Shown one piece after another: positions 1 through 5,511 of a DNA stretch of 5,511 bases (position 1 is the first letter of the stretch; each line of letters starts with the position of its first letter). The position numbers and the translations under genes are program-made. The DNA lies in the IMG/VR virus record IMGVR_UViG_3300045988_049372, positions 1 to 5,511 of that record; one strand, 5' to 3'. This DNA comes from a virus. Below the pieces are notes generated by a model, which saw only the letters and a list, made by a program, of their open reading frames with translations, made no database searches and was not told where the DNA came from.

Positions 1-398
1 GTCGCAGCATTTAAAAGCACGTCAGAATCTAACTTTTTTATAGTACCTTCACCAACACGCTGAGCAGTATCGGCCTGTTTTTGAGCAGCCTTAGCAGAAT
101 TGCCAGCAGCCTGCGAAGACATACCAGCAGTAACGCCTTCGCCTAAATTATACTGACTAGCAAGAGCAGAAGCACCATTTATAGAACCGCCAACACCTTG
201 CGTAGCAGCAAGCATAGGATTAAGTCCAGCCTTTTGCATATCTTCCATAGACCATTGATAACGATGCTGATAATTATACTGATTACGCTGATTAGCTACT
301 GTTGCAGCATGGCGGTCAGCAGAGTTAGAAAGAGCACCACCAATGATAGACGAAATGCCACCAGTAACAGCTCCAAGAGCAGAACCAAGAAATGACAT
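1..398 (-). CDS. VP2 minor capsid / DNA pilot protein, N-terminal part. The gene crosses the circular junction; its remainder is 5456..5057. Full gene is 798 nt, 265 aa.
   Basis: ATG at 398..396 on the minus strand is preceded by AAGGAG with a 9-nt spacer. Reverse-complement translation of 398..1 is an open frame with no stop: MSFLGSALGAVTGGISSIIGGALSNSADRHAATVANQRNQYNYQHRYQWSMEDMQKAGLNPMLAATQGVGG.... It is in frame with the track ORF 5057..5476 once position 1 is identified with 5457. Gly/Ala/Ser-rich N-terminus, the QRN..YN motifs and NPMLA are typical of gokushovirus VP2. It lies immediately downstream of VP1 after a 17-nt spacer. Confidence 0.6.
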   Translation of the reverse strand, partial: MSFLGSALGAVTGGISSIIGGALSNSADRHAATVANQRNQYNYQHRYQWSMEDMQKAGLNPMLAATQGVGGSINGASALASQYNLGEGVTAGMSSQAAGNSAKAAQKQADTAQRVGEGTIKKLDSDVLLNAA

Positions 399-415: not shown

Positions 416-2074
416 TTAGAAATGACCCATCATACCGGGTATACCATACATAGGCATAGGACGGATACACTTTAAATTAAACTTGACATCGAGCAGGAAA
501 TGAGGATAGGACGGAACAGCGACTACACGACTAATAGGCGGGTGGTCTTGTATAAACTCATCAGAAAGCGTAGGCAGCGTAGCAAATTTTTGCGATAAAT
601 GCCAAATATCAAGAGGTTCCTTATAAGTGCTCCGAAATTGACCAGTAATCAAAGACGGCTTATAGCGGTATTCAGCATAGCGCTCTTGGTAGCCAAATAC
701 TTTTTTATCATCAGCATTTCCTTGGCAATAAATCTCGATATTTTCTATGGCTTGTTCACCTAAATGCGCGAAAGACGGCCAATAAAAATCGAGCACATCA
801 GAACGCAGCCACATTTTATTTACTCCTTGCTGATAAGTCAAATCAGCACGAACGTTGATTAAGCCGATAATATAACCAAATTCCGAAAAAGATTTTGTAA
901 AGGCATGATAACGCTGGGCATTCAGACCATAAGCAGCTAAATTACCTTGTGGGGTTGTAGAGTCGGTAGAGCTTGTCTGAGTAACCGGGTTAATATTCAT
1001 CATACTAGAATGCGAGCCAAGGAATTCAGGACGTTGCAAACGAGCATCCGGATTAGTTACGCCGAAGTGTGCTTGAAGTTTTTCAGTGTACCTGGTGCCG
1101 CCGCGAGCGTCAGTCTCATAATAGCGTTGCAACATAAAAGCTTGACGAAGTGAATTAATAGTAACAGCAGTAACGCCAGACAAATCAGCATAAATATTAG
1201 GCGGAGTGCTAGCAGTAATAGAACCGGAATCTGAAGCATTGCTCAATGAGATAGCGCGACCAGCAGGCGCATTTGCAGCAATAAAAACGCCTTTATCATG
1301 GACTGTACCCAAAGCATCAACCCATGAAACACTTTCAATAGGAGTACCGGATGAAACACCAATACCAGCAACAGGAGCGTTACCGTTTAAAGGCAAGTCA
1401 ACAGCCGGACCTTTCTGAGGCCAAGGAAGAGCACCGGTGAAATAGTCATATCTTTTTCCACGCGGAGCCGGGTCATACCAATTACTTACGCCGGACGGAA
1501 AGCCATAATTAGGATTAGCGGTAGATTGACCCATTGGTTCCAAGACTGTACTAGATTCGCCTTTGCTAACCTTAACAGATTTCTGTAAGTTCTCATCTCT
1601 AAACCACTCGTTCCAAATGAGCCAGTACGAGCGGAACGGCAAGCAGTTAACGGAAACATTCTTAAAAGTACCGGAAGCACACGCGATACCCATATAATCG
1701 GGAAGCTTATTAGTCATATCGCCGGTTAGAGAAACAGTAGGTACAAGATAGTCCGTAGAATCTTCGGGATTTTCTTGCTCACCGCACAAATTAACCCATT
1801 TATCATATACGAGCCTACTGGGAACGAAGAAAAAGAAAGACTCAATATAGATGTTATCCATGAAAGGAACTACCGGAGTAGCCAAGCGGCAAAACTCAAC
1901 CGGATTTAAAGTAAACGTATCGCCTGGGATAACCTCATCCACGAAATAGGGAATCAGCTGGCCTTCGTTAAAAGTTGTCTTGTAAACATGACTTCTATCG
2001 AAAACAGAACGGCGAATATTAGCCTGCGGAATCATCGCAAAATGCGATTGATTTACACGAATATTACGAGCCAT
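416..2074 (-). CDS. Major capsid protein VP1 (Microviridae F-protein family), 552 aa.
   Basis: Complete ORF. N-terminal region has the gokushovirus VP1 signature: HFAMIPQANIRRSVFDRSHVYKTTFNEGQLIPYFVDEVIPGDTF...TPVVPFMDNIYIESFFFFVPSRLVYDKW. Size is typical of VP1 with the large insertion loop. AAGGAG RBS at 2091..2086. Confidence 0.93.
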   Translation of the reverse strand: MARNIRVNQSHFAMIPQANIRRSVFDRSHVYKTTFNEGQLIPYFVDEVIPGDTFTLNPVEFCRLATPVVPFMDNIYIESFFFFVPSRLVYDKWVNLCGEQENPEDSTDYLVPTVSLTGDMTNKLPDYMGIACASGTFKNVSVNCLPFRSYWLIWNEWFRDENLQKSVKVSKGESSTVLEPMGQSTANPNYGFPSGVSNWYDPAPRGKRYDYFTGALPWPQKGPAVDLPLNGNAPVAGIGVSSGTPIESVSWVDALGTVHDKGVFIAANAPAGRAISLSNASDSGSITASTPPNIYADLSGVTAVTINSLRQAFMLQRYYETDARGGTRYTEKLQAHFGVTNPDARLQRPEFLGSHSSMMNINPVTQTSSTDSTTPQGNLAAYGLNAQRYHAFTKSFSEFGYIIGLINVRADLTYQQGVNKMWLRSDVLDFYWPSFAHLGEQAIENIEIYCQGNADDKKVFGYQERYAEYRYKPSLITGQFRSTYKEPLDIWHLSQKFATLPTLSDEFIQDHPPISRVVAVPSYPHFLLDVKFNLKCIRPMPMYGIPGMMGHF

Positions 2075-2199
2075 GATATTATTAACTCCTTAATTTTATT
2101 AAAAGACCAAAAAGCACGAGAACGGCATTTTTGTTATCAAATCAGAAGGTAATTAAAAATAAATAAAAGGCTTATTTTTGAAGGTTTTTTCTGATTTTG

Positions 2200-2247
2200 T
2201 GTCACCTTGATCAGTTACGATCAAGTAGGTAACTGATCAAGGTGACA
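2200..2247. repeat. Perfect 19-bp inverted repeat in the VP3-VP1 intergenic spacer, containing three GATC sites. Arms TGTCACCTTGATCAGTTAC (2200..2218) / GTAACTGATCAAGGTGACA (2229..2247), 10-nt loop GATCAAGTAG.
   Basis: Read directly from the sequence. The arms are exact reverse complements. Each arm also contains the self-palindrome TGATCA. GATC at 2208, 2219 and 2235. Confidence 0.9.
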
Positions 2248-2285
2248 GGGTTATTATTCTACATAAGTGAATATTAGCATATAAG

Positions 2286-2729
2286 TTATTTTTGCTCTAA
2301 TTTAGGCTCTCCTGCTACCGGAGTGACAGGTGCTACCGGAGTATCTACAATAGTCTTTGCTTTTAGGCCTAACTCCTCAAGTCTAGCAACAACCTTTTCG
2401 TCAGTAGATGTTAGAGCATCAAGCAGCATACGCGGGTCATTGCCAAATTCAGCGCGAACGCTGGAAGGCAAATCTGCAAACTCTGCGTTGACGTTAGCAA
2501 CGAGGTTGCAGGCCGTTTCATAGTCAGGCAGTAATGTAGTATCACCGTATTGCAGCGTAGCCGGGTCATGCGCTCCGACAGAATCAACAATGCCGGTAGT
2601 ATTAAAGTTAGCGATAATGTGATGAATGTCGCATTCTTCCGCGAAAGTTTGGTCAGCAAGCGAAGGCTGTGTAATTTCTACGTGCGGTTTTGGCGGTTGC
2701 TCATCATATAACGTAAAAAACTTAGCCAT
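2286..2729 (-). CDS. Putative internal scaffolding protein VP3 (gokushovirus VP3-like), 147 aa.
   Basis: Complete ORF with AAGGAG RBS 10 nt upstream of the ATG at 2729. Acidic protein, size typical of gokushovirus VP3. The motifs EECDIHHII, YGD and AEFADLPSSVRAEFGNDP resemble the conserved ECDINNII ... F..LP..R..F.NDP core of Chlamydia-phage-type scaffold proteins. This is from memory, not a search. Confidence 0.5.
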   Translation of the reverse strand: MAKFFTLYDEQPPKPHVEITQPSLADQTFAEECDIHHIIANFNTTGIVDSVGAHDPATLQYGDTTLLPDYETACNLVANVNAEFADLPSSVRAEFGNDPRMLLDALTSTDEKVVARLEELGLKAKTIVDTPVAPVTPVAGEPKLEQK

Positions 2730-2915: not shown

Positions 2916-3278
2916 TTAATTGCGTTGTGATATTACAACTTGCCTTGTTAGTATTATACCACAACATTGGAAAGCGGGCAAGCGTACCTTATGAGTACAT
3001 TTTAGCAGTCTCGGGGGGGGAGGAGTCAATAGTTCCGTGGCGGTAGAAAGCAACAAAGTGGGAGATTGCGGGGAAAACACGCATGTTTTATCGTCAAACT
3101 CACCAAGATACATAAGCACAAAGTCCTCGTGATAATCATGGATAATGTTAGAACGCTCCGGAGTAGAGGGCTGATTAACCATGATTTGGAATTGACGAAT
3201 AGCCATAGCGTTATTCTGCTGAGTAAAAGGCGGATTCATTAACTCGCCTTTTCTGTCGTAAATACAATAAAGTTTCAT
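2916..3278 (-). CDS. Hypothetical protein, second gene of the accessory cassette. 120 aa as read; the C-terminal roughly 50 aa are low complexity and span a G8/C8 tract.
   Basis: ATG at 3278 overlaps the upstream stop (ATGA) and is preceded by GAGGTGA with a 7-nt spacer. The N-terminal 65 aa (MKLYCIYDRKGELMNPPFTQQNNAMAIRQFQIMVNQPSTPERSNIIHDYHEDFVLMYLGEFDDKTC) look like a genuine globular protein. The remainder (SPQSPTLLLSTATELLTPPPPRLLKC...) reads like translated non-coding DNA and contains a promoter-like element. Confidence 0.5.
   Translation of the reverse strand: MKLYCIYDRKGELMNPPFTQQNNAMAIRQFQIMVNQPSTPERSNIIHDYHEDFVLMYLGEFDDKTCVFSPQSPTLLLSTATELLTPPPPRLLKCTHKVRLPAFQCCGIILTRQVVISQRN
2953..2981 (-). 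promoter_or_regulatory. Candidate sigma70 promoter for the VP3-VP1-VP2 block: -35 TTGCCC (2981..2976), 17-nt spacer, extended -10 TGgTATAAT (2961..2953). Predicted TSS is near 2946.
   Basis: Minus-strand reading is TTGCCCgctttccaatgttgTGGTATAAT. The -10 is perfect, with an upstream TG and exact 17-nt spacing. It lies inside the low-complexity 3' end of the 120-aa ORF, about 220 nt upstream of the VP3 ATG. Confidence 0.5.
3013..3020. repeat. G8 homopolymer (C8 on the coding strand, encoding PPPP) inside the 120-aa ORF.
   Basis: Read directly. It is the only long G/C homopolymer in this roughly 42% GC genome. A -1 change gives stop after ...TPPRDC. A +1 change gives stop after ...PPPPETAKMYS. 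Confidence 0.8.
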
Positions 3279-3580
3279 TTTTTAATCACCTCAAAAGAAC
3301 CTTTTTTAAGACAAGCGATAAACTCTTGCTTGGCCAAATACGGGAGAACAAAATAAAAAGAGTCGAACAGAAGAACTTGATTTTGAGAAACTAATTTAGA
3401 TTGAGCACAAGGACGAAGATAAATACCGTTAGGCATTTTACGAATCCAGGCACGAGCAGCGGAATAAGACATAAAAAAAGGATAGTCGTCAAGATAGCTC
3501 AAAGCGTCTTCAAAGAAATCTTTATTAGATTGATTCCGAAGGTCTAAAGCAAAAAATTTATCAGCGTAGTTTTTTAACAT
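3275..3580 (-). CDS. Hypothetical protein, first gene of the accessory cassette, 101 aa. The track's 3637 start is revised to the ATG at 3580.
   Basis: The ATG at 3580..3578 is preceded by GAGGTGA 5 nt upstream. It sits about 19 nt downstream of the predicted TSS of a perfect consensus promoter. The track's upstream ATG at 3637 lies between the -35 and -10 hexamers, so it cannot be the start. Protein: MLKNYADKFFALDLRNQSNKDFFEDALSYLDDYPFFMSYSAARAWIRKMPNGIYLRPCAQSKLVSQNQVLLFDSFYFVLPYLAKQEFIACLKKGSFEVIKK. No recognisable family. Confidence 0.6.
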   Translation of the reverse strand: MLKNYADKFFALDLRNQSNKDFFEDALSYLDDYPFFMSYSAARAWIRKMPNGIYLRPCAQSKLVSQNQVLLFDSFYFVLPYLAKQEFIACLKKGSFEVIKK

Positions 3581-3605
3581 TACGCTCACCTCACTTTCTA
3601 TACAT

Positions 3606-3634
3606 ATTATACCATGAGGAAACGCAACTGTCAA
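3606..3634 (-). promoter_or_regulatory. Perfect consensus sigma70 promoter: TTGACA (3634..3629), 17-nt spacer, TATAAT (3611..3606).
   Basis: Minus-strand reading is TTGACAgttgcgtttcctcatggTATAAT. Both hexamers match consensus 6/6 with the optimal 17-nt spacer. It sits in the 80-nt spacer between the rep stop (3661) and the 101-aa gene, reading into that gene. Confidence 0.75.
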
Positions 3635-3660
3635 CAACTTTTTGCAACTTTTAGCAACTT
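3634..3660 (-). repeat. Three direct repeats A(2-5)GTTG(C/T) phased at 10-bp intervals (AGTTGC 3659..3654, AGTTGC 3649..3644, AGTTGT 3639..3634). They lie immediately upstream of, and overlap, the -35 hexamer.
   Basis: Minus strand reads AAGTTGCtAAAAGTTGCAAAAAGTTGTTGACA. Helical phasing together with A-tracts suggests an UP-element, an operator or iteron-like sites. Confidence 0.65.
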
Positions 3661-4605
3661 TTATAAACCTAAATTATCAAAATCACGCTCGAATTGCTCC
3701 TGCCGGTGCTTCAAAATCTTTTCCTTGGCTTCCAATCTTTTGCAATCAATAACAGCAGCCTTTGCATTATCGGCCTTATTTTGCTTGTATATACTATACC
3801 AAACGGGATTACTACGCTCAAATAATGTTTGATAGTAACGAGGTATCTTATACTTAGCTCCGTTGATTGTTACAAAGCCAAGTTTAAAAATATCCTCAGA
3901 GTAACGACCGAAATAGTCTGCTCCAATGCCTGGCTTAAGAGAGCTGCCAACAAACTCCGGACTAATACCAAGAGCATCATACATAAAGGCATTTTTACCG
4001 GTCTGCTTTTTGAGAGAGTATTTAGCGACATACCGGGCCGACTCAAATGTGATAGCTCCGACAATATTATAACCATAAGGCCAAAGCTTCTCCAGCGTAG
4101 GAGAACGAAAGAGATTATAGCCAGCTGCTAACGCCGATACCTTCCGGACATCAGCAGGAAACCAACCAAAGCACAAAATATGATAATGTGGACGGCGATT
4201 GAGATCGCCATACTCACCGCAACACAGAAAACGAATTTTAGAACTGTCATGATAATCTAAATAGCGACGCAACCTCTTAAAAAATAGTTGCAAATGTTCA
4301 CGATGCAGCGAGCAATCTGCTGGAAGGCAATCATCATTATAAGTTAGCGTGATGAAGCAGTTATGCAAATGTAATTTAGCTTCGTGAACACAACGAATAG
4401 CCCAATCATTAGCTTTATCAAGACGGCAGCCAAGGCATTGACCGCAAGGAACGACAACAGCATAATTATTAGCTAACTCACTTTTAGCTATTTCCAGAGA
4501 TTTCCCGGATAAATCGCGATAAGAAACAAAATTAGAAAGCTCAAATTTGCCGTTAGCATTTGGAACGGCAGAGCGTTTAGCAAACATAGGATTTAGGCAA
4601 GTCAT
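3661..4605 (-). CDS. Replication initiation protein VP4. Rolling-circle HUH endonuclease of superfamily I, Microviridae gene A / VP4 type.
   Basis: RCR motif I CFITLTY, motif II RPHYHILCFGW (HxH) and motif III ARYVAKYSLKK (paired catalytic tyrosines Y..KY). N-terminal CxxC..C cluster VVVPCGQCLGCRLD is typical of gokushovirus VP4. Start is set at the ATG at 4605 (MTCLNPMF..., matching the common M.CL.P VP4 N-terminus). The track's 4617 start is a GTG with no SD. Confidence 0.9.
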   Translation of the reverse strand: MTCLNPMFAKRSAVPNANGKFELSNFVSYRDLSGKSLEIAKSELANNYAVVVPCGQCLGCRLDKANDWAIRCVHEAKLHLHNCFITLTYNDDCLPADCSLHREHLQLFFKRLRRYLDYHDSSKIRFLCCGEYGDLNRRPHYHILCFGWFPADVRKVSALAAGYNLFRSPTLEKLWPYGYNIVGAITFESARYVAKYSLKKQTGKNAFMYDALGISPEFVGSSLKPGIGADYFGRYSEDIFKLGFVTINGAKYKIPRYYQTLFERSNPVWYSIYKQNKADNAKAAVIDCKRLEAKEKILKHRQEQFERDFDNLGL

Positions 4606-4623
4606 AATATCACACACTTTCTG

Positions 4624-4775: not shown

Positions 4776-5045
4776 TTAATTATTTTTTCCCAAAAAGCGG
4801 GAGTAACTTTTTTCTTCCGTCGCTGCTGCTGCCGCGTGGCGAAAGCCATTTACATCGTCGCTACCTCTTTTCTGCATATTAACAAGATCATCTTGCATAG
4901 CAAGCGAGATAGCTTTAAGGCTTGCGCTACCTTCACGATCGTATTTGCCAGTACGAAACATATCAATAAAATCAACAACCTCTTGAATGAAAGGAATAAC
5001 GGTAGATACGAGAAAAGTCAAAATAGCAGTAGTTTTGTTTGACAT
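4776..5045 (-). CDS. Hypothetical 89-aa protein with an N-terminal hydrophobic, putatively transmembrane helix. Candidate membrane or lysis protein.
   Basis: The ATG at 5045 is preceded by GAGGTGA with a 6-nt spacer; the VP2 stop TGA is embedded in this RBS. Residues 6-22 (TAILTFLVSTVIPFIQEVV) are hydrophobic, followed by a charged soluble tail. No family recognised. Confidence 0.55.
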   Translation of the reverse strand: MSNKTTAILTFLVSTVIPFIQEVVDFIDMFRTGKYDREGSASLKAISLAMQDDLVNMQKRGSDDVNGFRHAAAAATEEKSYSRFLGKNN

Positions 5046-5056
5046 AATTAATCACC

Positions 5057-5511
5057 TCATTTAGAAAAATAATTAGCAATACCGGAAAACAAACGATTAG
5101 CAGCACGGGCGACAGTATTCCAAGGCAGACCGTCATTGGAAAGACCAAGATTTTTGTAATCCTTATTGCGAGAAACCTTATAATCATAATCTGCAGCAGC
5201 AACATCAGTCAGCTGGGAATTGTAAGCAGCGGAACTATTAGCAGCATTGCCCTGAGCAATCATCATGTTAGCTTGGGCAGGCATAACTACACTACGCTGA
5301 TAAAGAGCATTTTGAGTTTGCTCATCAATTAGCTGACCTTGCTTTTCAGCATTGCGTAAATTCTGTTTATACAATGCGACATTATCAGCATAAGTATCGG
5401 CAGCCAACTTATTAGCAATAGTTTTTCCAGCAGCTTCAGCTTCAAAGTTTTTCGAAGTCGCAGCATTTAAAAGCACGTCAGAATCTAACTTTTTTATAGT
5501 ACCTTCACCAA
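5057..5511 (-). CDS. VP2 minor capsid / DNA pilot protein, C-terminal part (same gene as 1..398). Bases 5457..5511 duplicate 1..55.
   Basis: The track ORF 5057..5476 begins at an internal GTG. The frame stays open upstream to the window edge and is in phase with 398..1 across the junction. The C-terminal region is rich in A/N/Q with a predicted coiled-coil-like stretch (KQNLRNAEKQGQLIDEQTQNALYQ), as in other VP2 proteins. Confidence 0.6.
   Translation of the reverse strand, partial: GEGTIKKLDSDVLLNAATSKNFEAEAAGKTIANKLAADTYADNVALYKQNLRNAEKQGQLIDEQTQNALYQRSVVMPAQANMMIAQGNAANSSAAYNSQLTDVAAADYDYKVSRNKDYKNLGLSNDGLPWNTVARAANRLFSGIANYFSK
5457..5511. repeat. 55-nt exact terminal direct repeat (identical to 1..55). 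This is the circular-genome overlap. Unit genome length is 5456 nt.
   Basis: gtcgcagcatttaaaagcacgtcagaatctaacttttttatagtaccttcaccaa is present at both ends. Position 5456 (a) differs from anything preceding position 1, so the overlap is exactly 55 nt. Confidence 0.95.

What the first reader, a model, noticed from the sequence alone, without database searches (positions are those of the whole stretch)
2200..2247. Perfect 19-bp hairpin with a GATC triplet in the VP3-VP1 spacer: candidate complementary-strand origin or RNA-processing element
A 19/19 inverted repeat is far beyond chance in 5.4 kb. It lies in the 210-nt intergenic spacer just upstream of the major capsid gene. In ssDNA phages a hairpin on the packaged strand next to the F (major capsid) gene is the classic priming signal for complementary-strand synthesis (G4 oriC for DnaG, phiX174 n' site for PriA). 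On the coding strand it is followed by an A-rich run, not U-rich, so it is not a standard intrinsic terminator. It could still stabilise upstream mRNA, as the phiX174 hairpins do. The stem arms and the loop together carry three Dam-type GATC sites, and TGATCA sub-palindromes allow alternative cruciform folds.
Basis: partly seen in the sequence, partly recalled or inferred. Interest (0 to 1): 0.6.

Follow-up and report, generated by a model that had tools for sequence, protein, structure and literature searches.

The report
Gokushovirus replication-origin hairpin with phiX174-like nick site
The perfect 19-bp hairpin is real and conserved, and it most likely marks where this small single-stranded DNA phage's own replication protein cuts the viral strand to start and finish rolling-circle copying; I found no description of this element for this virus group, though it follows a well-known principle.

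Summary
A 19/19 inverted repeat (2200-2218 / 2229-2247) with a 10-nt loop lies in the 211-nt VP3-VP1 spacer of a circular 5,456-nt gokushovirus. All genes are on the window's minus strand. In 100 shuffles the longest hairpin stem was 11 bp.

The interpretation needs changing. On the viral (coding) strand the loop reads CTACTTGATC. This is 8/10 identical to the phiX174 viral-strand origin decamer CAACTTG^ATA (9/10 in relatives), the site cut by protein A. All 15 close relatives keep a 19-20 bp stem, with three compensatory double changes and no broken pair. Distant gokushoviruses have unrelated stems (54 distinct) but the same loop motif CTTG[ATG]T, including Chp2, phiMH2K, SpV4 and an E. coli prophage. 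The motif occurs in 97 of 114 contigs, always intergenic and usually just after VP3. The genome's VP4 protein shares phiX174 A's catalytic motifs, including YVAKY.

Best reading (about 0.75): this is the viral-strand rolling-circle origin, nicked between G2222 and A2221.

The three GATC sites are not conserved as a set: only one relative keeps even the loop site. No terminator features were found.

Two neighbouring covarying stems are better candidates for the complementary-strand origin.

Verdict: a new variant of a known kind, of moderate interest.

The parts
2229..2247 (-). 5' arm of the hairpin on the viral (coding) strand: TGTCACCTTGATCAGTTAC
   Evidence: All 19 pairs are kept in 15 distinct sequences (285/285 cells), with 3 pairs changed on both sides.
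2219..2228 (-). Loop CTACTTGATC on the viral strand. The predicted VP4 cleavage site lies between G2222 and A2221 (CTACTTG^ATC).
   Evidence: One search gives the sequence. The phiX174 origin is CAACTTG^ATA, nicked at G4305/A4306. The core TACTTGAT is invariant in 16/16 clade members. CTTG[ATG]T sits in the hairpin loop in 97/114 gokushovirus contigs. The nick position is inferred by homology and was not measured.
2200..2218 (-). 3' arm of the hairpin on the viral strand: GTAACTGATCAAGGTGACA
   Evidence: The GTAACTG next to the loop is conserved in sequence across many distant lineages, whether paired or not.
2248..2285 (-). 38-nt block between the VP3 stop codon and the hairpin, almost invariant in the clade (…ATGCTAATATTCACTTATGTAGAATAATAACC). 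Its role is unknown; it may be an accessory origin or Rep-binding sequence, or a promoter.
   Evidence: This block plus the hairpin is 93% identical to relatives, against 81% for the VP1 coding DNA.
3661..4617 (-). VP4, the HUH rolling-circle replication initiator and presumed enzyme acting on the loop. Motifs: FITLTY, HYHILCF (HUH), RYVAKYSLKK (Tyr196/Tyr200).
   Evidence: Pfam PF23343, E = 2.7e-22. phrog_942 replication initiation protein, E = 6e-106. BLASTP against phiX174 A, E = 4e-6 over motifs 1-2. The YVAKY core is identical to phiX174 A Y343/Y347.
2139..2197 (-). Stem B: AAATCAGAA pairs with TTCTGATTT and encloses an A/T-rich segment. It starts 2 nt downstream of the origin hairpin. 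Role unknown; candidates are the complementary-strand origin or a VP1 5'-leader structure.
   Evidence: Two adjacent pairs switch together (TCAG/CTGA versus TACG/CGTA) in 8 of 16 sequences, and none is broken.
2108..2133 (-). Stem C: CAAAAAtGCCGttctCGtGCTTTTTG, a small hairpin 33 nt upstream of the VP1 ATG. Role unknown.
   Evidence: Two pairs carry compensatory changes (A-T to G-C in 8/16, G-C to C-G in 2/16) and none is broken. dG -4.7 kcal/mol, z = -3.3.
2286..2729 (-). VP3 scaffold gene, the upstream neighbour. The hairpin follows VP3 in most gokushoviruses, whatever gene comes next.
   Evidence: Pfam Chlamy_scaf, E = 7e-26. VP3 is the upstream gene in 84 of 94 genomes.
416..2074 (-). VP1 major capsid gene, the downstream neighbour. 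Its RBS AAGGAG is at 2086-2091.
   Evidence: Pfam Phage_F, E = 2e-174.

Best explanation
The hairpin is the viral-strand (plus-strand) origin of rolling-circle replication of this gokushovirus. In the supercoiled double-stranded replicative form, the perfect 19-bp inverted repeat can extrude as a cruciform. In displaced or packaged single-stranded DNA it folds directly. Either way the 10-nt loop CTACTTGATC of the viral strand is exposed as single-stranded DNA. The phage's HUH endonuclease VP4 then cuts between G2222 and A2221 and becomes covalently linked through one of its two tyrosines (Y196/Y200) to the 5' phosphate. Host polymerase extends the free 3'-OH. After one round the regenerated hairpin in the displaced strand is cut by the second tyrosine, and the strand is ligated into a circle for packaging. 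What is shown: the structure; its conservation with compensatory changes; a strand-specific loop motif conserved on unrelated stems; its identity to the phiX174 cleavage decamer; and the shared Rep catalytic motifs. What is inferred: cleavage itself, the exact nick position, cruciform extrusion and the two-tyrosine cycle, all by homology with phiX174 protein A.
For: (1) The loop CTACTTGATC (CTACTTGATA in most relatives) is 8/10 (9/10) identical to the phiX174 origin decamer CAACTTG^ATA. GenBank annotates that origin at 4306, and the literature describes it as cut between G4305 and A4306. The extended match CCTACTTGATAGTAA versus CCAACTTGATATTAA is 13/15. The pC194 origin also contains CTTGATAATAAGGGTAAC. 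(2) In 16 clade members the stem is fully paired (285/285 cells) with 3 double-compensatory pairs and no one-sided change, and the loop core is invariant. (3) 97 of 114 gokushovirus contigs of 4-6.5 kb have a perfect hairpin with CTTG[ATG]T in its loop on the coding strand, against 17 on the other strand. Among stems of 9 bp or more the counts are 83/202 versus 2/202. There are 54 unrelated stem sequences, and the element is the longest hairpin in 65 of 95 genomes. (4) It is present in the cultured references Chp2, phiMH2K and SpV4; Chp1 has a hairpin at the same position with a variant loop motif, CTTGGC. It is also present in the closest named GenBank genome, in an E. coli enterogokushovirus prophage and in three more distant microviruses. 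Hosts this different argue for recognition by a virus-encoded protein. (5) It is intergenic in 93 of 94 genomes and lies right after VP3 in 84 of 94, even though the downstream gene differs. (6) VP4 has the HUH and YVAKY motifs of phiX174 A. Rep monophyly of Gokushovirinae and Bullavirinae is published (PMC6668415). (7) The spacer is more conserved (90%) than the VP1 coding DNA (81%). (8) The only other CTTGATA in a phiX-like position, inside VP4 at 4416-4422, varies at synonymous sites and so is not under nucleotide-level selection.
Against: There is no experimental evidence of cleavage or origin activity for any gokushovirus. The phiX174 origin works without a hairpin, lies inside gene A, and needs an AT-rich spacer plus a downstream 'key' sequence (my recollection of the older literature) that have no clear counterpart here. 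The base after the presumed nick is not invariant across the subfamily (A 81%, T 19%; Chp1 has CTTGGC). CTTGAT also occurs three more times on the coding strand by chance. The hairpin must be on the viral strand both for a viral-strand origin (the nicked strand) and for a complementary-strand origin (the ssDNA template), so strand specificity alone does not separate them. A double role cannot be excluded.
Confidence: 0.75

Rival explanations
1. Complementary-strand (minus) origin only. The hairpin on the packaged ssDNA is the entry or priming signal for host primase, PriA or RNA polymerase that converts ssDNA to the replicative form.
For: It is a very stable hairpin on the viral strand in the main intergenic region next to the capsid gene. 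This is the same kind of place as the phiX174 PriA site and the G4 origin (phiX174 ori(-) described). It is conserved in position across relatives.
Against: It does not explain why the loop matches the Rep cleavage decamer of phiX174. It also does not explain why that loop is invariant across phages of unrelated hosts while the stems are free to change, since host priming signals are host-specific. From my own knowledge, known single-strand origins are long imperfect structures, not one perfect 19-bp stem. Two adjacent covarying stems are alternative candidates for this role.
Confidence: 0.08
2. RNA element. The hairpin acts in the polycistronic mRNA as a 3' stabiliser, processing site or weak terminator after VP3, or as a 5' leader structure regulating VP1.
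For: The hairpin is transcribed if transcripts run VP3 to VP1, and it folds equally well as RNA. phiX174 uses intergenic hairpins as terminators.
Against: There is no U-tract, and the terminator scan found nothing in 1900-2900. There are no G-U pairs and no one-sided changes in 285 cells. The conserved loop sequence is not needed for a purely structural RNA role. There is no Rfam match.
Confidence: 0.04
3. Palindromic double-stranded binding site (operator) for a dimeric regulator or packaging protein such as VP5 or a host factor, unrelated to nicking.
For: It is a perfect palindrome in a regulatory spacer upstream of the most highly expressed gene. Concerted changes in both half-sites are also expected for a symmetric operator.
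Against: Stems are unrelated between lineages (54 different sequences) while the asymmetric, strand-specific loop is what is conserved, which is the opposite of an operator. Stem length ranges from 7 to 20 bp.
Confidence: 0.06
4. Dam- or GATC-dependent element: three methylation sites controlling cruciform formation or replication timing.
For: Three of the genome's six GATC sites fall within 48 nt.
Against: Only the loop site is shared with one relative (L006). The stem sites are GACC/GGTC or GAAC/GTTC in all 15 relatives and in L128. They arose from one compensatory C:G to T:A change. GATC is depleted genome-wide (6 observed, 15-20 expected).
Confidence: 0.01

Closest known systems
phiX174 (Bullavirinae) viral-strand origin, the 30-nt sequence cut by gene A protein at G4305/A4306
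   Same: Same virus family and homologous Rep (HUH plus YVAKY two-tyrosine motif). The cleavage decamer is nearly identical (CAACTTGATA versus CTACTTGAT[A/C]). It lies on the viral/coding strand.
   Different: The phiX174 origin lies inside the rep gene, is not in a hairpin, and from my recollection depends on an AT-rich spacer and a downstream key sequence. Here the motif is intergenic (after VP3), sits in the loop of a 19-bp perfect hairpin, and the 3' flank is the stem GTAACTG…
Double-strand origins of pC194/pUB110-family rolling-circle plasmids (and IS91-type elements, which from my own knowledge target CTTG)
   Same: Same Rep superfamily and the same CTTGATA core. The pC194 origin is TTCTTATCTTGATAATAAGGGTAAC. 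That the nick follows the G is from my own knowledge of that literature.
   Different: These are plasmid replicons with a separate single-strand origin. From my own knowledge, the nick site is not displayed in a long perfect hairpin loop.
Stem-loop origins of CRESS-DNA viruses (circo-, gemini-, nanoviruses) and pT181-type plasmids
   Same: Same architecture and logic: a conserved nick motif in the loop, a variable stem maintained by compensatory change, an intergenic location, and cleavage by an HUH Rep.
   Different: The loop motif differs (a nonanucleotide of the TAGTATTAC type versus yTACTTGAT), and so does the Rep class (single Tyr plus an SF3 helicase domain versus two Tyr and no helicase domain detected).
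phiX174 n'/PriA site and G4 complementary-strand origin
   Same: A stable hairpin on the packaged strand in an intergenic region beside the capsid gene.
   Different: Those are host-factor recognition structures with no Rep-site motif. This loop carries the Rep cleavage motif and is conserved across phages of unrelated hosts.

Membership tests
phiX174/pC194-type viral-strand (double-strand) origin of rolling-circle replication | A cognate superfamily-I HUH Rep with two catalytic tyrosines is encoded by the same replicon | tested here: met
   VP4 (3661-4617, minus strand): Pfam PF23343, phrog_942. Motifs HYHILCF and RYVAKYSLKK match phiX174 A HFHAVHF and FYVAKYVNKK.
phiX174/pC194-type viral-strand (double-strand) origin of rolling-circle replication | The nick-site consensus …CTTG^AT(A) is present on the viral (displaced) strand | tested here: met
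   The loop reads CTACTTGATC on the coding strand, against CAACTTGATA in phiX174 and CTTGATA in pC194. It is on the coding strand in 97/114 contigs, against 17 on the other strand.
phiX174/pC194-type viral-strand (double-strand) origin of rolling-circle replication | The motif is under nucleotide-level selection in relatives | tested here: met
   It is invariant in 16/16 clade members and retained on 54 unrelated stems. The in-gene CTTGATA at 4416-4422 is not conserved at synonymous sites.
phiX174/pC194-type viral-strand (double-strand) origin of rolling-circle replication | A phiX174-style AT-rich spacer and 'key' binding sequence lie 3' of the nick, and the origin is located inside the rep gene | tested here: not met
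   The 3' flank is the stem GTAACTGATCAAGGTGACA, and only TAA aligns with the phiX174 ATATTAATAAC. The element is intergenic. It is therefore a variant, not a copy, of the Bullavirinae origin.
phiX174/pC194-type viral-strand (double-strand) origin of rolling-circle replication | Site-specific cleavage and ligation by the Rep, and origin activity in vivo | not testable with these tools
   This needs purified VP4 with oligonucleotides, or genetics in a cultivable relative.
Hairpin-loop origins of HUH replicons (CRESS-DNA viruses, pT181 type) | A conserved nick motif in the loop of a stem kept by compensatory substitutions | tested here: met
Hairpin-loop origins of HUH replicons (CRESS-DNA viruses, pT181 type) | A CRESS-type nonanucleotide (NANTATTAC) and a Rep with an SF3 helicase domain | tested here: not met
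   The loop is CTACTTGATC. VP4 matches only the HUH nuclease family and no helicase domain.
Complementary-strand origin (phiX174 PriA site, G4 primase origin, plasmid single-strand origins) | A folded structure on the packaged strand in a non-coding region | tested here: met
   This feature is shared with viral-strand hairpin origins and does not discriminate.
Complementary-strand origin (phiX174 PriA site, G4 primase origin, plasmid single-strand origins) | Recognition by host priming machinery (primer synthesis on the ssDNA) | not testable with these tools
   Indirect evidence is against it: the same loop occurs in phages of Chlamydia, Bdellovibrio, Spiroplasma and E. coli.
Intrinsic (Rho-independent) terminator | A G+C-rich stem followed directly by a U-tract on the transcribed strand | tested here: not met
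   The scan found 0 terminator-like sites in 1900-2900. The tail is CAAAAUCAGAAAAAA.
XerCD/dif-type integration site of temperate gokushoviruses | A 28-bp dif-like motif | tested here: not met
   There is no match to E. coli dif with up to 3 mismatches. The hairpin has no similarity to dif. The host's dif is unknown, so this holds only for the E. coli form.

The most novel reading that the evidence does not exclude
A hairpin presenting yTACTTG^AT in its loop, placed just downstream of the scaffold gene VP3, is the general viral-strand origin of Gokushovirinae and of several other non-Bullavirinae microvirus lineages. I found no description or annotation of it. If so, the textbook phiX174 origin (no hairpin, buried in gene A) would be the derived exception in the family. 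Together with the two adjacent covarying stems, a possible complementary-strand origin, the VP3-VP1 spacer would form a compact cis-acting replication module. That module could be used to annotate origins in thousands of metagenomic microviruses and to build phagemids or replicons for hosts such as Chlamydia.
Probability: 0.55. Interest if true: 0.6.

Novelty: new variant of a known kind. Interest (0 to 1): 0.5.

Why it matters
Gokushoviruses are among the most abundant ssDNA phages in gut and environmental viromes. I found no origin of replication described for them in the genomics papers I could search, and none annotated in the six database records I inspected in which the element occurs. 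A simple sequence-plus-structure signature would make the cis-acting replication signal directly testable: a hairpin on the coding strand with CTTG[AT]T in its loop, downstream of VP3. E. coli enterogokushoviruses carry it and can be resurrected in the laboratory (PMC7062461). The signature would also give a natural zero coordinate for circular microvirus genomes. It would allow minimal replicons or phagemids to be designed for hosts that are hard to manipulate genetically. It would also show that the Rep cleavage motif has been conserved across the deepest split in the Microviridae while its presentation (hairpin loop versus in-gene duplex) changed.

Tried and rejected
- **Dam/GATC reading: rejected.** The stem GATCs are unique to this genome, and GATC is depleted overall.
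- **Alternative TGATCA cruciforms: rejected.** The 19-bp hairpin is the centroid fold.
- **Intrinsic terminator: rejected.** There is no U-tract and the scan found nothing.
- **Known RNA family or tRNA: none found**.
- **dif/XerCD site: no match**.
- **A phiX174-like origin inside the rep gene.** The CTTGATA at 4416-4422 encodes L-D-K and varies at synonymous sites in relatives, so it was rejected.
- **Assembly or amplification artefact: rejected.** The element is present in 16 independent contigs and in cultured phages.
- **An exact copy of the window's arm in IMG/VR: none**, so the window itself is not in that collection.
- **Near-identical named phage: none.** The best megablast hit covers 5% of the window. 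The closest named VP1 is 67% identical.
- **Literature.** None described a gokushovirus origin hairpin. The original Chp2 and phiMH2K papers are not held, so an older mention cannot be excluded.
- **Promoter scan of the spacer: nothing convincing**.

Full report
**What the window is.** The first 55 bases of the window repeat exactly at its end, so it is a circularly assembled genome of 5,456 nt. All genes lie on the window's minus strand.
- VP1 major capsid: 416-2074 (Pfam Phage_F, E = 2e-174).
- VP3 scaffold: 2286-2729 (Chlamy_scaf).
- VP5: 2916-3278.
- VP4 replication initiator: 3661-4617 (REP_ORF2-G2P; phrog_942).
- VP2 pilot protein: from 398 across the window ends to 5057.

This is a gokushovirus with the gene order VP4-VP5-VP3-VP1-VP2. 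No near-identical phage is in GenBank. The closest named VP1 is 67% identical and comes from mink and monkey faeces. Microviridae package the coding-sense strand (established knowledge of the family), so the viral strand is the window's minus strand.

**The observation.** The arms 2200-2218 and 2229-2247 are 19/19 complementary around a 10-nt loop.
- The longest perfect stem in 100 dinucleotide shuffles of the genome was 11 bp, with a mean of 8.5.
- As DNA the 48-mer folds at -19.5 kcal/mol (z = -9.5), and the full hairpin is the centroid structure.
- The 211-nt VP3-VP1 spacer as a whole has z = -7.9.
- The three GATC sites and the A-rich downstream run are as described.

**Close relatives.** A VP1-based search of IMG/VR returned 15 contigs with 83-95% VP1 identity, from at least four samples. 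Every one has a 19-20 bp perfect hairpin 121-124 nt upstream of the VP1 start.
- In the alignment all 285 pair-cells are Watson-Crick.
- Three stem pairs show changes on both sides: C:G becomes T:A in this window and A:T in L001, and two loop-proximal pairs change in L012.
- There are no one-sided changes and no G-T pairs. No shuffle or slid register reproduces this pattern.
- The two stem GATCs of the window are the product of one such compensatory change. Relatives have GACC/GGTC or GAAC/GTTC there.
- The loop is CTACTTGATA in most relatives (CTACTTGATC only here and in L006), so the 'Dam triplet' is not a conserved feature. GATC is in fact depleted in this genome: 6 observed against 15-20 expected.
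- The spacer is more conserved than the coding DNA: 90% versus 81% nucleotide identity to relatives, and 93% for the hairpin block.

**The loop sequence.** On the viral strand the loop reads CTACTTGATC. The phiX174 record places the origin of viral-strand synthesis at 4306, within cccCAACTTGATATTAATAAC. A recent phiX174 study restates that protein A cleaves and religates between G4305 and A4306 in this 30-nt origin, using Tyr343 and Tyr347.
- The loop is 8/10 identical to CAACTTGATA, and 9/10 in most relatives.
- With flanks, CCTACTTGATAGTAA matches CCAACTTGATATTAA at 13 of 15 positions.
- The origin of plasmid pC194, whose Rep belongs to the same superfamily, also contains CTTGATAATAAGGGTAAC.
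- VP4 shares with phiX174 A the motif-1 block (FITLTY / FDTLTL), the HUH motif (HYHILCF / HFHAVHF) and an identical YVAKY two-tyrosine core.
- Published network analysis finds the Reps of Gokushovirinae and Bullavirinae monophyletic (PMC6668415).

**Distant relatives.** This is the decisive comparison. I scanned 114 gokushovirus contigs of 4-6.5 kb for perfect hairpins whose loop contains CTTG[ATG]T.
- 97 contigs have one on the coding strand, against 17 on the opposite strand. The opposite-strand cases are mostly 6-bp chance stems.
- Among stems of 9 bp or more, 83 of 202 coding-strand hairpins carry the motif, against 2 of 202 on the other strand.
- The stems fall into 54 unrelated sequences, and in 65 of 95 genomes this is the longest hairpin.
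- Several of the 'missing' cases are truncated loci or imperfect stems, such as L065 and L084.

The cultured reference phages have the element too:

| Phage | Hairpin |
|---|---|
| Chp2 | CTAGCGTATAACAG tctACTTGAT CTGTTATACGCTAG |
| phiMH2K | AGTTCGGCTAC ggaccctACTTGTTgtaa GTAGCCGAACT |
| SpV4 | TGGGGCATAT attACTTGTTata ATATGCCCCA |
| Chp1 | GGGCTATAT cctCTTGGCT ATATAGCCC |

It is also in the nearest named GenBank genome and in an E. coli enterogokushovirus prophage (CCTGGCACAGT gccctACTTGATgta ACTGTGCCAGG). In three much more distant microviruses (26-30% VP1 identity) the longest hairpin of the genome likewise has CTTGAT or CTTGTC in its loop. Two Alpavirinae-like genomes showed no clear counterpart.

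The element overlaps a predicted ORF in only one of the 94 genomes (L031). In 84 of 94 it directly follows VP3, whether the next gene is VP1 (57), VP4 (20) or ORF8 (7).

A conserved, strand-specific loop on freely evolving stems, in phages of Chlamydia, Bdellovibrio, Spiroplasma, E. coli and gut bacteria, is the signature of a site read by the virus's own HUH endonuclease. It is not what a host-specific priming signal would look like.

**Mechanism proposed.** In supercoiled replicative-form DNA the inverted repeat extrudes. In displaced ssDNA it simply folds. Either way CTACTTG^ATC is presented as single-stranded DNA.
1. VP4 cuts after G2222 and attaches to the 5' end of A2221.
2. Host enzymes extend the 3'-OH.
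3. After one round the regenerated hairpin is cut and the strand is circularised.

The structure, its conservation, the motif identity and the enzyme motifs are shown here. Cleavage, the exact nick position, extrusion and the two-tyrosine cycle are inferred from phiX174. I put this reading at about 0.75.

**Rival readings.**
- *RNA stabiliser or terminator.* It lacks a U-tract, G-U pairs and any Rfam match (0.04).
- *Symmetric operator.* This predicts conserved half-sites and a free centre, the opposite of what is seen (0.06).
- *Dam dependence.* Contradicted by the relatives (0.01).
- *An in-gene origin as in phiX174.* I checked the CTTGATA at 4416-4422 inside VP4. It encodes Leu-Asp-Lys and varies freely at synonymous positions in relatives.
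- *dif-like site.* None is present.

**Neighbouring structures.** Just downstream of the hairpin, two further stems covary within the clade.
- Stem B (2139-2197) is AAATCAGAA / TTCTGATTT. It switches between TCAG/CTGA and TACG/CGTA in 8 of 16 sequences.
- Stem C (2108-2133) is CAAAAAtGCCG…CGtGCTTTTTG. It has an A-T to G-C change in 8 of 16 and a G-C to C-G change in 2 of 16.
- Across both stems there are 19 pairs, 4 with double changes and none broken.

Their role is open.

**Comparison with what is known.** The element works like two known things at once. It carries the phiX174/pC194-type cleavage motif and Rep, and it has the stem-loop presentation typical of CRESS-DNA virus and pT181-type origins.
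- It is not a copy of the phiX174 origin: there is no in-gene location and no AT-rich spacer or key sequence.
- It is not a CRESS origin either: there is no nonanucleotide and no helicase domain in the Rep.

All ten full-text searches and targeted reading of the main gokushovirus genomics papers found no description of such an origin. None of the records I inspected in which the element occurs annotates it. Chp1's record lists four other hairpins but not this one. The original Chp2 and phiMH2K papers are not in the library, so an older remark cannot be ruled out.

**Verdict.** I classify it as a new variant of a known kind. Interest is moderate (0.5). It is unsurprising in principle for an HUH replicon. 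It is nevertheless useful, general across a very abundant phage group, and directly testable in E. coli enterogokushoviruses.

Noticed in passing
window 1-55 and 5457-5511: There is an exact 55-nt terminal direct repeat. The window is a circularly assembled genome of 5,456 nt.
   Followed up: yes
window 398-1 continuing at 5456-5057, minus strand: The VP2 (pilot protein) gene runs across the window ends and encodes 265 aa starting MSFLGSALGAVTGGI. Only its C-terminal part appears in the ORF list.
   Followed up: yes
window 2139-2197 and 2108-2133, minus strand: Two further stems between the origin hairpin and VP1 show compensatory substitutions within the clade: 4 of 19 pairs changed on both sides and none broken. 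Function unknown. Candidates are the complementary-strand origin or a VP1 leader or weak terminator.
   Followed up: partly
window 2248-2285, minus strand: The 38 nt between the VP3 stop and the hairpin are almost invariant in 16 genomes (…ATGCTAATATTCACTTATGTAGAATAATAACC). This is more conserved than the coding DNA. It contains CACTTATGTAG, which loosely resembles the loop. Role unknown.
   Followed up: partly
whole window; GATC at 2209, 2219, 2235, 4203, 4886, 4937: GATC is under-represented: 6 observed, against about 15 in dinucleotide shuffles and about 20 from base composition. Half of the sites sit in the hairpin. This may reflect avoidance of a GATC-specific restriction system in the unknown host.
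   Followed up: partly
window 4416-4422, minus strand (inside VP4): A second CTTGATA lies inside the rep gene, reminiscent of the in-gene origin of phiX174. It encodes Leu-Asp-Lys of a CxxCRLDK motif and varies at synonymous sites in relatives, so it is coincidental.
   Followed up: yes
window 3275-3637 and 4776-5045, minus strand: There are two ORFs without assigned function. The 120-aa ORF between VP4 and VP5 has no Pfam or PHROG hit. The 89-aa ORF matches only phrog_23638, of unknown function.
   Followed up: no
L017-L028, L037 (about 55% VP1 clade), 19-31 nt upstream of VP1: This sister clade has, besides the short origin hairpin, a second conserved 11-12 bp hairpin (AAACCTAATAAT …tttgctttagg… ATTATTAGGTTT) right in front of the VP1 start. 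It is absent from the window's clade. Function unknown.
   Followed up: no
L128 (SFFE01000042.1), 1793-1840: The only hit in the genome collection is a 5.5-kb contig that is a whole gokushovirus of the window's clade, binned into a Clostridiales MAG. This is a weak host hint or a binning artefact.
   Followed up: partly
L135 (bajarodmic virus 1055) 3117-3149: In this distant microvirus the motif-bearing hairpin (CTTGCGTTTTGC ctCTTGTCa GCAAAACGCAAG) lies inside the annotated rep gene. This is intermediate between the gokushovirus (intergenic hairpin) and phiX174 (in-gene, no hairpin) arrangements.
   Followed up: no
L046 (Chp1, NC_001741) 2750-2777: The Chp1 record annotates four 'hairpin-like structures' (h1-h4) but not this 9-bp hairpin just after ORF3/VP3. 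Its loop, cctCTTGGCT, is the most divergent version seen.
   Followed up: partly
L130 (Microviridae Bog1249_12) 1980-2020: The longest hairpin of this Stokavirinae-like genome (15 bp) carries CTTGATC in its stem rather than its loop. A 7-bp hairpin nearby has CTTGTC in the loop. It is unclear which, if either, is the origin.
   Followed up: no
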